Of a stretch of 64,000 nucleotides of DNA, positions 1 through 63,658 are shown one piece after another. The position numbers and the translations under genes are program-made. The DNA is from Alphaproteobacteria bacterium (GTDB lineage: Bacteria > Pseudomonadota > Alphaproteobacteria > MPNO01 > UBA830): assembly GCA_964291215.2 (NCBI GenBank), contig OZ219791.1, positions 1,216,001 through 1,280,000 of the forward strand. The letters run 5' to 3'. A model generated the notes under the pieces. That model worked only from the letters and a program-made list of their open reading frames with translations. It ran no database searches and was not told where the DNA came from. The stretch's first letter is position 1. Each line of letters starts with the position of its first letter.

Positions 1-432
1 GATTTCTTCTTCGCCTTTCCATTCTTGGGAGCGCGGCTTGAATGAGCACACCAACGGCCTGGTGCGGGAGTACTTCCCGAAGGGCACGGACTTTCGCGCG
101 ACATGCAACGAAGATGTTCAGAAGGTGCGGCTCAACACTCGGAAAGTCCTGGGATCGCCGACGGAGGTAATCTTGAAGTGAAACCGCCCTGACCATCTGC
201 GTTCCAAAGCCGCAACGTGCAGCAGGGTCCATGCCGCGCGACGGCGGAATAGTGGCTTGAAGCCGACAAAGGCGTTGCATAAGCTCGATGTTGAAGGAAC
301 TGAAGCTGTTCCCAGGCGGAATCGAGAGGGGCAGAGGGGAAAAATTTGTGCAACACCCGGCCCTCATCTCCGTTCGGGCTACGCCCTCACTGCGATGAGG
401 GCCGGGTGTTGCACTTCAGACTGGAAGTGGGG
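1..432 (+). mobile_element. IS30-family element, 3' part (degraded), runs off window start
   Basis: Encodes the IS30 transposase C-terminal motif HSWERGLNEHTNGLVREYFPKG. Ends in right IR gtgttgcacttcagactggaagtgggg. Near-identical to 2221..3408, 6242..7436 and 22527..23691. Confidence 0.9.
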
Positions 433-560
433 ACAAAAAAATCAAGCGATTTTATATTTTTTCGCAGGCGCTAGCTAACGCCATCCACACTCCTGACATT
501 CCTATCTTGGCGTTCACCTGACACCGCGGCCCCGCATTCCTGCCGGACCGCGGCGAATAT

Positions 561-2147
561 TCAGCCGTCGCTATCGGCGAACACTTTCCGGTAAATCGCT
601 TCGGTGCGCGCGGCTTCTTCGTCCGTCAGGGCGGCGAATTCCTTTTCTCGTGCTCGGCGGGATAGAGCCCCACTATTCTGGTGCAGGAACCGAAATAGAA
701 GGTCTGACAGCCGCTCGGGCATATCGACGATCAGGTTGAGCTCATTCCGAAACGCATCGTACCGCTTCAGAAATCCGGCTTCGTCCGGCAGGTCGTGCTC
801 GATGGTCCGCTGCACGCAGCCGTAAAGGAATTCCGTTTGAGGCGTGGCATCAAAATACCGGTAGAAATCGCTGGTGTCATTCAGCACCCGAACATTGCCG
901 TCTTCCGTCGGTTCCCAGTTCACGACCGGCAGCAGGCGCTGCGAATAATCTTCAAGCGCGGCGCGGTAGTCGTCGATCCGGTCCAGGATCGTCGCCGATA
1001 CTGGAAAAACTATGCCGGGCGGGTTAAAGCCGCGCTGGGCCAGAACATGATGGATCAGGTACCGGTGCAGCCGGCCGTTGCCGTCTTCGAAAGGATGGAT
1101 ATACACAAAGCCGAAGGCTAGAACCGCCGAGACGACAACCGGATCGAGTTGCTGCGCGGCCTGGCGATCGAAGGCGACTATGCCATCTATGATCCCGGCC
1201 AGATCATCCGGCCGCGCACTGATGTGGTCCGGGATCGGCATGCCCGTTTCACGGTCGCGTTCCCCGACAAAACCGCCTTCCGTCCGCAGGCCTAGATGGA
1301 CGAAGCGGGCATCACCGATCACGATGCGTTGCAGGCGCAGCAGTTCGTCAAGATCGATTGGCTGCCGGCCGGCTTGGCCGATGGCGCGGCCCCAGCGCTG
1401 GATGCGGTCTTGTGGCGGATGCTCGCCTTCGATCGCGAAACTCGACTTCGAATCCTTGACCAGCAGGAAAGCCGCCGTGCGCGCCAGCAGATCGCGCGGC
1501 ACGGCGGCGACGACATCCTGAGCGCGCGTGTGCAGGTCCATGGCGATCAAGCGCTCCAGTGCTTCCGTACGGAACACCAAAGGGCAGAACGCTGGCGTGC
1601 CGGGCAGGTTGTTCTTGACCCGGTGCCGGGACGAGGTCTCTGCGGGGGCCGTATATTGCTGGTCTGGATCGACGATAAGCGCATAGGCCCCGCGATCGGC
1701 GTTCGGCAAATCGAGCTGCGTTCCCATCAGCCATTCATAGAGGAACCAGATGCGCCGGGCGTAGGCGCCAGTGGGCTTGGCCTTGACCAGACCTGCGACG
1801 GGGGCCGGGCCGGTTGCGGCAAACAGCCTCTTCAGTATGGCTAAGTCGAGCCCTTCGTATTTCAGTGCGAAGGTCAGGTGTCCTTCCAGACTCGCTTCCG
1901 GTGCATAGCGCGGTGAGTAGATGCGCCAGCCGCCTTCCTCCAAGAGCCTGTGCCGCTCACCGGTAGCGCATAAGGTGCGTGGGAGCGGCACGGGGAGATC
2001 GTAGCTTCCGATCAGCGCGGCGTAGCCCGCTGGCGTCGCGGTCACGGGGAGGCGCCGTTCATGAAAAACGGTAACGGGACCTGAAAGACGATTCTGGGCA
2101 GAGGCGTCCATGCTTAAACTGTTTTCCATCCTGCGGTGGGGCTGCAC
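561..2147 (-). CDS. Fic family protein (adenylyltransferase)
   Basis: 528-aa ORF with the canonical Fic motif HPFEDGNGRLHR. The true start may be a downstream Met (e.g. MDASAQ near 2111). Confidence 0.9.
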   Translation of the reverse strand: MQPHRRMENSLSMDASAQNRLSGPVTVFHERRLPVTATPAGYAALIGSYDLPVPLPRTLCATGERHRLLEEGGWRIYSPRYAPEASLEGHLTFALKYEGLDLAILKRLFAATGPAPVAGLVKAKPTGAYARRIWFLYEWLMGTQLDLPNADRGAYALIVDPDQQYTAPAETSSRHRVKNNLPGTPAFCPLVFRTEALERLIAMDLHTRAQDVVAAVPRDLLARTAAFLLVKDSKSSFAIEGEHPPQDRIQRWGRAIGQAGRQPIDLDELLRLQRIVIGDARFVHLGLRTEGGFVGERDRETGMPIPDHISARPDDLAGIIDGIVAFDRQAAQQLDPVVVSAVLAFGFVYIHPFEDGNGRLHRYLIHHVLAQRGFNPPGIVFPVSATILDRIDDYRAALEDYSQRLLPVVNWEPTEDGNVRVLNDTSDFYRYFDATPQTEFLYGCVQRTIEHDLPDEAGFLKRYDAFRNELNLIVDMPERLSDLLFRFLHQNSGALSRRAREKEFAALTDEEAARTEAIYRKVFADSDG

Positions 2148-2220
2148 AAGCGCCCGTTTCGTGAAAAATCATACCTTTTGAGGAAAAACGATAACATATT
2201 CTTGAAGTGACGAAAAACAA

Positions 2221-60900: not shown

Positions 60901-61254
60901 GGCGTGTTCCCTGTCGAAATGGGTCTTGTCCGCAACTCTGCTCGGACTGCAGAGTCGCAAGCCAGCCGTCGACGGCAGCGGCTCCGCGCTGCCTTCCGCG
61001 CTGTCGGCACCGGTTTCCGGCGAGCCCGGATCCGTTGCGCCGGATCCGGCGACAGCTTAGGCGATAGCCGGGCCGTTCACAACGCGCCGCGGCCTCCGGC
61101 GACGCGCGCGGACCGTACGTTCGGGGCTGCGACGGTAGCATGATACTTGAATTCGTCCGGTATTTGCGGCAAGATACGGCTATTGTCGCGCCGGGAGACC
61201 GGCTTGCGGACTACCGCGCAGGGCGCAGCAGTCGACAACGTGGAGGCATGTCAC

Positions 61255-62430
61255 ATGACGGAAGTCGTAATTGCGAGCGCCGCTCGTACGCCGGTCGGTT
61301 CGTTCAACGGTGCGCTGAGCGGCGTCACCGCCTCCGATCTGGGCAGGATCGCGATATCGGCTGCGCTCGAGCGGGCGGGGGTTTCTCCGGAGGATGTCTC
61401 CGAAGTGATCATGGGACAGATTCTCACGGCCGCCCAAGGCCAGAACCCGGCGCGCCAAGCCTCGATCGCCGCCGGGCTTCCCGTCGAGGTCCCCGCCTAC
61501 GGCGTCAATCAGCTGTGCGGCTCGGGCCTCAAGTCGGTGGCGATGGGGTTGCAGGCGATCCTGAACGGCGATTCCGGAATCGTCGTCGCCGGCGGGCAGG
61601 AATCCATGAGCCAGGCGCCGCACGCGCAGAACCTGCGCGGCGGCGCGAAGATGGGGAATGTCGAATTCGTCGATACCATGATCAAGGACGGGCTGTGGGA
61701 CGCCTTCAACGGCTACCACATGGGCAACACGGCCGAGAACGTCGCCGAGAAGTGGCAGATAACCCGGGATGAGCAGGACGCCTTCGCCCAGCGGTCGCAG
61801 GAGAAGGCAGAAGCGGCGCAGAAGGCCGGGCGGTTTGACGATGAGATCGTGCCGGTCACCTATTCGACGCGCAAGGGCGACATCACCGTGGACACGGACG
61901 AGCATCCCAGGCACGGCACCACGCTCGACGACCTGGCGAAGCTCAGGCCGGCCTTCGACCGCGACGGCACCGTCACCGCGGGCAACGCCTCGGGGATCAA
62001 TGACGGGGCGGCGGCGTTGGTGCTGATGACGGCGGACGAGGCGGCGGCGCGGGGAATCACGCCGCTTGCCCGGATCCTGTCCTGGGCGCAGGTCGGCGTC
62101 GATCCCGCAATCATGGGGTCGGGGCCGATCCCGGCCAGCCGCAAGGCGCTGGAGAAGGCGGGATGGTCCGTCGACGACCTTGATCTCGTGGAAGCCAACG
62201 AGGCCTTCGCCGCGCAGGCCTGTGCCGTCAACAAGGGTCTCGGCTGGGATGCGGACAAGGTCAACGTCAAGGGCGGCGCGATCGCGCTCGGGCATCCGAT
62301 CGGCGCTTCGGGGGCCCGGATCCTGGTCACTCTGCTGCATGAAATGCAGGTCCGCGATGCCCGGAAGGGGTTGGCGACGCTCTGCATCGGCGGCGGGATG
62401 GGCATCGCGATGTGCGTGGCCCGCGACTAA
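61255..62430 (+). CDS. phaA: Acetyl-CoA C-acetyltransferase (beta-ketothiolase)
   Basis: [22 protein letters not shown] and [16 protein letters not shown] before the ATG at 61255. Confidence 0.95.
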
Positions 62431-63658
62431 GGATTCTCGCCAAAATAGATTGTTTTTTGATGTGGATCTGCTATCTAATGTGTCATGGAAGCGATAGTCG
62501 ATACGCTGCGATCCAAATTTGTGGTGTTGCGTCCGGTTCTGAACGAACGTGCGCGGCGCCTGTAGGCGGCGACGGAGGCCCGTGCCATCGGGCGCGGAGG
62601 CATTGCGCGAGTGGCTGAGGCGACGGGGATGTCGCGCAGCACCGTTCGCGCCGGGCTGAAGGAGCTTGATTCGGAATCTTCGAGTGAGATTCCTTCAGGA
62701 CGTTTGCGTCGCCCCGGCGGCGGGCGCAAGCGGGTGGCGGATGTGGATCCGGGTTTGGTGGCGGCGCTGGAGCGCGAGCTTGAACCGATGACGCGCGGCG
62801 ATCCGGAGAGTCCGCTGCGGTGTCACAGTGCCGCACGGCTGGCGGACCGTCTTGCGGTCGAGGGCCACCGCGTCAGCGAGCGCACGGTGAACCGGCTGCT
62901 CCACGATCTGGGGTACAGCCTCCAGGCCAATCGCAAGACGCTGGAAGGCCGCCAGCCCGGGATGCGCAGTTCCGACGCGCCGGGTGCGCGCGTTCCAGAG
63001 GCTGGGCCAGCCTGTGGTGACACGAAGAAGAAGGAAATCCAGTACCGCAATGGCGGCCGGGCCCCAAGGGCGACCCTGAAGCCGTCAACGTGCATGACTT
63101 CCCCAATCCAGAGCTCGGCAAGGCGATCCCCTACGGGGTCTACGATCTCACCGCCAACGCCGGCTGGGTCAGCGTCGGACACGACACGGCGGCGTTCGCG
63201 GTTGAGACCCTGCGCCGCTGGTGGCGGCAGATGGGCCGGCTGCTCTATCCCGATGCCAAGCGCCTGCTGATCACCGCCGACGGCTCCAACAACAGCCGCA
63301 ACCGGCTGTGGAAGCTGCAGCACCTCGCCGACGAACTCGGGTTGAAGGTGTCGGTGGCCCACTTCCCGCCCGGAACCAGCAAGTGGAACAAGATCGAGCA
63401 CCGGATGTTCTGCCATATCACCCAGAACTGGCGCGGCCGGCCCCTCGTCAGCTACCAGGTGATCGTCAAGCTGATCGCCGCGACCACCACCGGCCTCACC
63501 ATACGCTCGGACCTCGACGAGAACAGCTATCCGCTCGGGGTCAAGGTCAGCGACGATGAGATGGACGGCCTCGCCATCCGCAGAGACCCGTTCCACGGCG
63601 AGTGGAACTACACCCTCACGCCACGGACATAACGAACATATTATTTTGGCGAGAGTCC
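62431..63658 (+). mobile_element. ISAzo13-family insertion sequence (degraded), second copy
   Basis: IRs ggattctcgccaaaata / tattttggcgagagtcc; TSD TAA (62428..62430 and 63659..63661). Confidence 0.92.

What the first reader, a model, noticed from the sequence alone, without database searches (positions are those of the whole stretch)
1..63658. IS elements are selectively shredded by short microhomology-flanked deletions: candidate repeat-directed genome defence
Seen: transposases from nine IS families are broken into many frames, and where sibling copies exist the cause is short deletions, often 5-7 nt, mostly between tiny direct repeats. Examples: IS30 aaaCGCgcCGCagg (near 6530) vs aaaCGCagg (near 2515); IS630 caGGCactGGCgga (near 12595) vs caGGCgga (near 24115); ISAzo13 ggGCcaccGCgtc (near 62862) vs ggGCgtc (near 26891); IS66 CAAGGcccggacCAAGG (near 28925) vs CAAGG (near 17472). 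Substitutions between copies are comparatively few, and IRs and TSDs are often intact. Adjacent genes, including accessory Fic, AbiE and the lipoprotein, are full length. The pseudogenes present once in this window (DUF736, cysteine desulfurase) decay by substitutions and 1-nt indels. Known: bacteria have a general deletion bias, and fungi inactivate repeats by RIP. Inference: this density, narrow size range and restriction to mobile DNA suggest an active process, such as guided cleavage or nicking followed by end-joining repair. No candidate effector gene is visible in the window.
Basis: partly seen in the sequence, partly recalled or inferred. Interest (0 to 1): 0.9.

Follow-up and report, generated by a model that had tools for sequence, protein, structure and literature searches.

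The report
Old transposons riddled with 6-base deletions
Old jumping-gene copies in this sponge-associated bacterium each carry 4 to 50 tiny deletions of 5-7 bases, a real and very unusual scar pattern that likely comes from a lineage-specific mutation process whose products were copied on in dead elements, not from a proven anti-transposon weapon.

Summary
In 10 of 11 repeat families tested, sibling IS copies differ mainly by gaps of 5-7 nt (mode 6). These far outnumber 1-nt gaps and are about a third as common as substitutions. Comparison with an intact homologue in a congener, and an ORF test, show they are deletions. Each copy carries 4-50. The alleles are present in contigs built independently from the reads of three runs, so this is not an assembly artefact. 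A congener's IS630 copies, 2-5% diverged, have no gaps at all, so the process is specific to this lineage.

The same size class occurs in single-copy DNA against the closest relative (46 gaps where this genome is shorter, 7 the other way), though about 20-50 times rarer per substitution. Deletions private to one IS copy are as rare as that background (0.019 per private SNP). The excess lies in deletions shared between copies (0.315). Element ends are spared. A young IS66-type family with at least 10 copies is untouched. I found no Ku, ATP-dependent ligase, NucS, Argonaute, TopIB or TnpB, and no CRISPR spacer matches the IS.

Best reading: a lineage-specific 6±1-nt deletion signature that was propagated in damaged, trans-mobilised elements and shuffled by short-tract gene conversion. 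The enzyme responsible is unknown.

The parts
2211..3412 (.). IS30-type copy. One of about 60 in the genome; copies carry 9-19 deletions of 5-7 nt each.
6237..7440 (.). IS30-type copy. It holds the long allele AAACGCGCCGCAGG at 6530.
22527..23691 (.). IS30-type copy. It lies in a segmental duplication with C2:161335-162499 and shows the same deletion pattern.
12420..13495 (-). IS630-type copy (DDE_3 and HTH fragments). The family has 36 full copies with 4-18 deletions each. The long allele is at 12592.
23957..25043 (-). IS630-type copy, among the most heavily deleted: it retains 3 of 21 variable blocks.
26330..27667 (+). ISAzo13-type copy (PF07592 in two frames).
62421..63668 (+). ISAzo13-type copy, among the least deleted: it retains 20 of 29 variable blocks. 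The long allele is at 62862.
16843..18340 (+). Old IS66-like element, about 180 copies in the genome.
28232..29800 (+). Old IS66-like element with 11-40 deletions per copy. Its first 246 nt (28232-28477) carry no 5-7 nt length change in the 29 listed copies. A long allele of a 12-nt difference lies at 28925.
13500..14030 (-). IS256-type (Transposase_mut) fragment. The other half is at 16250-16840; the two are split by the insertion below.
14040..16190 (+). Tn5-like IS. Five close copies in the genome, with about 31 indel sites among them, mostly 5-8 nt.
30200..31480 (.). Unnamed repeat family, about 60 copies, 19-50 deletions per copy.
31500..32902 (-). Unnamed repeat family, about 24 copies, 4-15 deletions per copy. 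The majority consensus gives a 440-aa frame.
44001..58000 (.). Single-copy control stretch. Against relative G001 this genome is shorter by 5, 8, 7, 12 and 5 nt at 46165, 47796, 47813, 53330 and 56194. Contigs of run X13 match it with 0 differences.
5265..6356 (-). Single-copy cysteine-desulfurase pseudogene. It is broken in the middle but has no 2-residue gaps.

Best explanation
The IS copies are truly riddled with 5-7 nt deletions, and these most likely stem from a lineage-specific, genome-wide mutational process that makes 6±1-nt deletions rather than from a nuclease aimed at IS DNA. Shown: the gaps are deletions, they are real in the reads, they occur in this lineage and not in a congener, and the same size class occurs in single-copy DNA. 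Inferred: most deletions entered the families while the elements were still being copied. Internally damaged elements with intact ends would have been mobilised in trans, so their descendants share the scars, and short-tract gene conversion between copies then scrambled the patterns. Since insertion, resident copies have gained deletions only at about the genome's background rate. The lower size limit would reflect MutS repair of loops up to about 4 nt (established knowledge from E. coli, not tested here). The enzyme or defect that creates the 6-nt mode is unknown.
For: Polarity. An 'all blocks present' reconstruction of IS630 aligns to the intact G004 homologue with 1 gap in 167 aa and 4 gaps in 178 aa. 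The majority consensus shows 11 and 42 gaps. The alignment shows a row of 2-residue gaps. ISAzo13 with all blocks present gives a 412-aa frame over the whole element, against 196 aa for the majority consensus.

Reality. X13 contigs match 14 kb with 0 differences. X14 and X15 agree, and X15 shows one further 6-nt loss. The IS region is covered at >=99% likeness with no indel rows, and loose ends show that the long alleles also exist in the reads.

Lineage. Four G004 IS630 copies with 27-63 substitutions have 0 gaps.

Genome-wide occurrence. In 297 kb of single-copy alignment, 46 gaps of 5-7 nt have G000 shorter and 7 have it longer. They are not enriched near repeats.

Private versus shared. 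The ratio of deletions to SNP alleles is 33/1705 = 0.019 for private variants and 276/875 = 0.315 for shared ones. Noncoding single-copy DNA gives 18/3111.

Ends spared. The left 246 nt of the IS66-like element shows no length change in 27 of 29 listed copies, and none has a 5-7 nt change, while the ORF part of the same copies varies from 1205 to 1306 nt. The first block in the alignment comes only at column 365, apart from one in a divergent row. Blocks in IS630, ISAzo13 and IS30 start at columns 116, 123 and 83.

Nesting. Nestedness exceeds the shuffled null in 6 of 6 families. Among the five Tn5-like copies, 19 of about 31 sites fit a ladder, read by eye.

Mosaicism. SNP splits interleave at 50-100 nt and include a shared dinucleotide change. 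Linkage decays within about 20 nt.

Young family. A young IS66-type family of at least 10 copies, 99-100% identical, has intact frames and no 5-7 nt deletion.

Mismatch repair. MutS and MutL are intact.
Against: The model does not explain why deletions are about 16 times commoner per SNP among shared than among private variants. That needs either a much higher deletion rate in the proliferating lineages or biased transmission.

Per kb, IS copies carry 10-25 deletions, against 0.6-1.0 in noncoding single-copy DNA. Selection on intergenic DNA would have to remove most of them.

Between 72% and 88% of block pairs show all four gametes. Descent alone therefore fails, and heavy conversion or recurrent deletion is needed.

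Polarity in single-copy DNA rests on asymmetry only. The outgroup test failed: 2 events had hits, giving 2 long, 4 short and 1 ambiguous row on poor alignments.

No cause for the 6-nt mode was found.

The young family has so few substitutions that it tests only for a high current rate.
Confidence: 0.42

Rival explanations
1. Conversion-associated deletion. When diverged IS copies pair, heteroduplex loops or mismatch clusters too large for MutS would be cut out, which creates deletions and/or spreads them preferentially to other copies (biased gene conversion toward the short allele).
For: The copies are a fine-scale mosaic. Deletions are over-represented among shared variants, 0.315 against 0.019. 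Junctions often carry adjacent base changes. The enrichment is confined to multicopy DNA. MutS and MutL are present.
Against: It gives no reason for sparing the element ends. A family with only five close copies is as densely hit as families with 60-180 copies. I know of no precedent. It does not by itself explain the single-copy events or the 6-nt mode.
Confidence: 0.2
2. A dedicated anti-transposon system. A guided or repeat-sensing nuclease would cut active IS DNA, and imprecise rejoining would leave stereotyped 5-7 nt losses: a deletion-based analogue of fungal RIP.
For: Density per substitution in IS is 20-50 times that in single-copy DNA. The size window is narrow. The same sites are hit in many copies with little linkage between sites. 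A single-copy pseudogene is not hit. Accessory genes are intact.
Against: No Ku, ATP-dependent ligase, NucS, Piwi or TopIB was found, and TnpB is only a sub-threshold remnant. None of about 112 CRISPR spacers matches elsewhere in the genome. No motif lies within about 15-20 nt of the sites; the highest information content is 0.11 bit. Private deletions are at background level. The young multicopy family is untouched. The ends are spared. One site every 20-50 nt would need thousands of guides.
Confidence: 0.15
3. Transposition-coupled mutagenesis. Each round of copying or integration of an IS would introduce a few short deletions inside it.
For: Shared deletions with spared ends fit changes acquired between rounds of mobilisation. 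Patterns are nested.
Against: At least 10 copies of the young IS66-type family are 99-100% identical and of equal length, so recent transposition was faithful. Families with different transposition chemistry (IS630, IS30, IS66, IS256, Tn5-like) show the same signature. Single-copy DNA shows it too.
Confidence: 0.1
4. Sequencing or assembly artefact in repeats.
For: The genome is a two-contig assembly with very many repeats. The per-copy phase of the variants could not be checked with contigs.
Against: Contigs assembled independently from three runs carry the same sequence and both alleles. The deletions restore to a homologous protein when filled in. A segmental duplicate carries the identical pattern. 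Single-copy events were also seen against two independent data sets, G001 and X1.
Confidence: 0.03

Closest known systems
Deletional decay of pseudogenes and IS in host-restricted bacteria (e.g. Danneels et al. 2018, PMC6054270; passages read)
   Same: Neutral DNA is lost through small deletions. Ku and LigD are absent. Some junctions show microhomology. The IS load is high: families seen in this window alone cover 13.7% of the genome.
   Different: That paper reports a power-law size distribution with a 3n excess. Here the sizes have a sharp mode at 6 nt, few gaps of 1-4 nt, and a tenfold drop at 8 nt. Density in IS is far above that in other DNA.
Repeat-induced point mutation (RIP) of fungi
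   Same: Repeated mobile DNA is inactivated wholesale while unique genes stay intact.
   Different: The lesions here are deletions, not C-to-T transitions. Substitutions show no dinucleotide context: the fraction of sites with C>T is 0.22-0.24 in all four contexts. A two-copy segmental duplication is not affected beyond background. The organism is a bacterium.
Non-autonomous, internally deleted transposons mobilised in trans (MITE-like or Ds-like derivatives)
   Same: The ends are conserved and the interior is damaged. Many copies share the same internal lesions.
   Different: The interior carries dozens of 5-7 nt losses rather than one or a few large deletions.
Alternative (Ku-independent) end joining and replication slippage
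   Same: Losses are short, some have 1-6 nt of microhomology, and some have changed bases at the junction.
   Different: 36 of 127 events have no microhomology. Microhomology does not predict how many copies carry a deletion (rho 0.05, p 0.61). The size window is far narrower than reported for either process (the latter is recalled, not tested).

Membership tests
RIP-like repeat-induced mutation | An excess of C-to-T transitions in a fixed dinucleotide context within repeats | tested here: not met
   C>T site fractions are 0.218, 0.240, 0.243 and 0.222 for CA, CC, CG and CT.
Ordinary neutral indel decay | Indel sizes that fall off monotonically (power law) from 1 nt | tested here: not met
   Nearest-neighbour copies show 582 gaps of 5-7 nt against 14 of 1 nt in the IS66-like family, with similar results in IS30, IS630 and F30200. 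The baseline comes from PMC6054270 (passages).
Slippage or microhomology-mediated deletion | Direct repeats at the deletion borders | tested here: inconclusive
   Mean microhomology is 1.54 nt against 0.80 by chance. 78 of 127 events have 0-1 nt. There is no correlation with allele frequency.
Ku/LigD non-homologous end joining | Presence of Ku and an ATP-dependent ligase | tested here: not met
   PF02735 gave 0 matches in G000-G004. PF01068 gave 0 matches in the 5 genomes searched. The control genomes matched in both searches.
NucS/EndoMS mismatch cleavage (5-nt staggered cuts) | Presence of NucS | tested here: not met
   PF01939 gave no match in G000.
Guided nucleases (pAgo, TnpB/Cas12, CRISPR self-targeting) | An effector gene, and guides or spacers matching the IS | tested here: not met
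   Piwi gave 0 matches. PF07282 gave only a 24-bit sub-threshold remnant in G000. Two Cas1 genes and two arrays exist, but no spacer matches elsewhere in the genome at E<=0.01. The only hits are an IS end inserted at the tail of one array. Cas9 and Cas3 themselves were not searched for.
Top1-dependent short deletions at ribonucleotides | A type IB topoisomerase, usually together with loss of RNase HII | tested here: not met
   PF01028 gave 0 matches. RNase HII is intact.
IS630, ISAzo13, IS66, IS256 and Tn5-like insertion sequences | Transposase domains of the family | tested here: met
Fragments match DDE_3/HTH_29/HTH_32, PF07592, PF00872 and Tnp_DNA_bind. PF03050 gave 127 matches genome-wide.

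The most novel reading that the evidence does not exclude
This bacterium has, or had, a repeat- or transposon-directed silencing process that disables proliferating mobile elements by punching out 6±1-nt pieces. It would be a deletion-based bacterial counterpart of fungal RIP, run by machinery unrelated to the nucleases searched for here.
Probability: 0.2. Interest if true: 0.95.

Novelty: new variant of a known kind. Interest (0 to 1): 0.72.

Why it matters
Small-indel spectra in bacteria are thought to fall off smoothly with size. A sharp 6-nt mode that appears in one lineage and not in its congeners points to a specific enzyme or repair defect that nobody has described.

In this genome the process has left hundreds of transposon copies dead. 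Families seen in this one window alone cover 13.7% of the genome. It may therefore show how a host-associated bacterium gets out of an IS explosion.

If the concentration in IS proves to be targeted, it would be a new kind of genome defence. If not, it is a clean natural mutational signature. It could be traced to its cause by comparing repair genes with the unaffected relatives.

Tried and rejected
Insertion model. Early on the gaps looked like 5-7 nt insertions or transposon footprints, because many long alleles occur in only one copy. This was rejected by the outgroup and ORF tests.

Brute-force choice of block states by longest ORF. It was uninformative (one search timed out).

Sequence motif or PAM near the sites. 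None was found within about 15-20 nt. Farther positions were not examined.

CpG or RIP-like substitution context. None was found.

Leakage of deletions from IS into flanking unique DNA. There was no enrichment with proximity to repeats.

NucS, Ku, ATP-dependent ligase, Piwi, TopIB, loss of RNase HII, loss of MutS or MutL. All excluded as listed in the membership tests.

CRISPR self-targeting. No spacer matches.

Outgroup polarisation of single-copy events with genomes 70-78% identical. The alignments were too poor: 2 events had hits and gave mixed calls.

Close orthologue of the cysteine-desulfurase pseudogene. None was found in G001-G004; only a 52%-identical protein comparison was possible.

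Low-copy Tn5-like family as a 'private SNPs, shared deletions' test. This was first confounded by a sixth copy only 68% identical. I re-read the five close copies by eye.

Earlier notes of this scan. None exist on this genome and none are alike.

Literature. Three full-text searches found no report of a 5-7 nt deletion class. Supplements were not read.

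
Full report
SETTING. The window is C2:1216001-1280000 of a 6.15-Mb, two-contig genome with 64% G+C. Its best malate synthase matches, 61-72% identical, are mostly alphaproteobacterial, which is a weak placement. Runs of 'organism A' hold the stretch almost whole. Sponge and marine metagenomes hold 5-24% of its words. One of these, X1, was laid on the stretch and carries a relative with many differences. The first 33 kb of the window, and the segment 62.4-63.7 kb, are mostly repeats present 4 to about 240 times in the genome. Families seen in this window alone cover 13.7% of the genome. From 33 to 62 kb lie ordinary intact genes.

THE OBSERVATION. Pairwise window-versus-genome alignments show a second gap-length mode at 5-7 nt (1744, 3090 and 1474 gaps) with a tenfold drop at 8 nt (150). 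In multiple alignments the blocks of 5-7 nt number 33 of 62 (IS30), 21 of 40 (IS630), 29 of 63 (ISAzo13), 74 of 148 (IS66-like), 73 of 211 and 39 of 118 (two unnamed families). Several such blocks also occur in four further families. Only a Transposase_29 fragment has just one. Between nearest-neighbour copies, 5-7 nt gaps outnumber 1-nt gaps 582 to 14, 175 to 10, 129 to 16 and 373 to 31. They amount to 0.23-0.33 per substitution.

DELETIONS, NOT INSERTIONS. Many long alleles occur in a single copy, which at first suggested insertions. G004, a congener, has an intact IS630 relative about 70% identical. The majority consensus of this genome's copies aligns to it with a row of 2-residue gaps and an out-of-frame C-terminal part. 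A reconstruction with every 5-7 nt block present aligns with 1 gap in 167 residues and 4 in 178. For ISAzo13 the same reconstruction opens a 412-aa frame over the whole element. No copy is intact. Copies carry 4-18 (IS630), 4-20 (ISAzo13), 9-19 (IS30), 11-40 (IS66-like) and 19-50 (F30200) deletions.

REAL, AND SPECIFIC TO THIS LINEAGE. Logan contigs of run X13 match window 44001-58000 with no difference at depth 43-47. X14 differs at 4 letters. X15 is a strain with about 60 differences and has one further 6-nt loss. Over the IS-rich stretch 2001-14000, all three runs give contigs at least 99% alike in every IS-bearing bin, with no indel rows. Their loose ends spell long alleles of IS630 blocks, so both alleles are in the reads. 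Contigs cannot phase distant sites, so the per-copy combinations rest on the assembly. The four G004 IS630 copies differ by 27-63 substitutions and have no gap at all.

NOT CONFINED TO IS. I aligned 297 kb of single-copy DNA to G001, which is 91-94% identical. In this alignment, 46 gaps of 5-7 nt have G000 shorter and 7 have it longer. Gaps of 1-4 nt are about symmetric (137 and 114) (the first subset gave 25 to 0). In noncoding DNA this is 18 gaps in 29.4 kb with 3111 substitutions. The events look like those in IS, including changed bases at the junction. They are not enriched near repeats. Their polarity is inferred, because the outgroup test failed.

WHERE THE EXCESS LIES. I pooled seven families and treated the copies as a sample. 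Deletion sites found in a single copy number 33, against 1705 singleton SNP alleles (ratio 0.019). Sites shared by two or more copies number 276, against 875 shared SNP alleles (ratio 0.315). Resident copies have therefore decayed at roughly the genome's background ratio. The excess was acquired in ancestors of copies, or spread among them.

Three further facts fit acquisition during proliferation. First, the ends are spared. The left 246 nt of the IS66-like element show no 5-7 nt length change in 29 listed copies, where about 9 variable sites would be expected from the density elsewhere (58 in 1646 nt). The ORF part of the same copies varies by up to 100 nt. Blocks in the other families also start only 80-120 columns in. 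Second, presence patterns are nested beyond a shuffled null in 6 of 6 families. The five Tn5-like copies form a ladder that fits 19 of about 31 sites, read by eye. Third, a young IS66-type family has at least 10 copies that are 99-100% identical, all 2042 nt long, with open 462-463 aa frames. It has no such deletion.

WHAT DESCENT ALONE CANNOT EXPLAIN. All four gametes occur in 72-88% of block pairs, and r2 falls to about 0.1 beyond 20-40 nt. In the Tn5-like family the SNP splits {4,5}, {1,4}, {2,3} and {3,5} interleave every 50-100 nt and include a shared dinucleotide change. The copies are therefore true fine-scale mosaics, which implies short-tract conversion. The 16-fold surplus of shared deletions needs an explanation. 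Either the deletion rate was higher in the proliferating lineages, or transmission was biased toward the short allele. I could not separate these two.

MECHANISM. There is no motif within 15-20 nt. Microhomology is modest and does not predict allele frequency. The substitution spectrum is ordinary. Searches found no Ku, ATP-dependent ligase, NucS, Piwi or TopIB, and only a remnant of TnpB. MutS, MutL and RNase HII are intact. Two CRISPR loci exist, with about 97 and 17 repeats, but no spacer matches elsewhere in the genome. The lower limit of 5 nt would fit the known failure of MutS to repair loops above about 4 nt. This is recalled from E. coli work and was not tested here. The upper limit and the mode at 6 nt remain unexplained.

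CONTROLS IN OTHER DNA. A 7.5-kb repeat pair 99.85% identical has 9 substitutions and one 2-nt gap. A pair of neighbouring duplicated segments has 247 substitutions and four gaps of 6-7 nt, a ratio of 0.016. The single-copy cysteine-desulfurase pseudogene shows none of the 2-residue gaps over about 280 aligned residues. Its age as a pseudogene is unknown.

VERDICT. The pattern is real, strong and unlike published bacterial indel spectra (PMC6054270, passages read). Three full-text searches found no report of it. The claim of a directed defence is not supported by the tests I could run, but it is not excluded for elements that are actively proliferating.

Noticed in passing
G000 C1:331700-334300 and at least 9 other loci (L200-L207, L210, L211): A young IS66-type element of 2042 nt has at least 10 copies that are 99-100% identical, with open 462-463 aa frames. 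One copy has a single 55-nt deletion. Two copies share a clustered replacement with a 3-nt loss.
   Followed up: yes
L035 (G004) about 1940-2000: The intact IS630 relative of the congener reads in two frames joined at a run of eight A. This looks like a programmed frameshift site.
   Followed up: no
window 3601-6000: Run X15 has no contigs at >=99% likeness over the AbiEi/AbiEii genes and the pseudogene, although it covers the flanking IS. A contig joins 3318 to 7411. That strain seems to lack this stretch.
   Followed up: no
L224 (G000 C1:574100-581400) and L225 (C2:2068450-2069620): There are two CRISPR arrays. One has about 97 repeats of 36 nt with roughly 37-nt spacers, next to a 599-aa Cas1 frame. 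The other has 17 repeats of 36 nt with 30-nt spacers, next to a 315-aa Cas1. The end of the second array abuts a multicopy IS end of the family at window 31500-32902.
   Followed up: partly
window 19310-25060: This stretch is a segmental duplicate of C2:158113-163868. The two are 96.5% identical, with 147 substitutions and mostly 1-3 nt gaps.
   Followed up: partly
window 28478-28540: About 62 nt between the conserved left end and the ORF of the IS66-like element are present in this copy and about a dozen others, but absent from most copies.
   Followed up: no
window 32949-38210: An intact polyphosphate gene set (PPK2, PPK1, Ppx/GppA) sits directly beside the IS-rich stretch.
   Followed up: no
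G001 contigs C145, C201, C95, C36: The closest relative has TnpB-type (PF07282) matches above the cut-off, while this genome has only a sub-threshold remnant.
   Followed up: no
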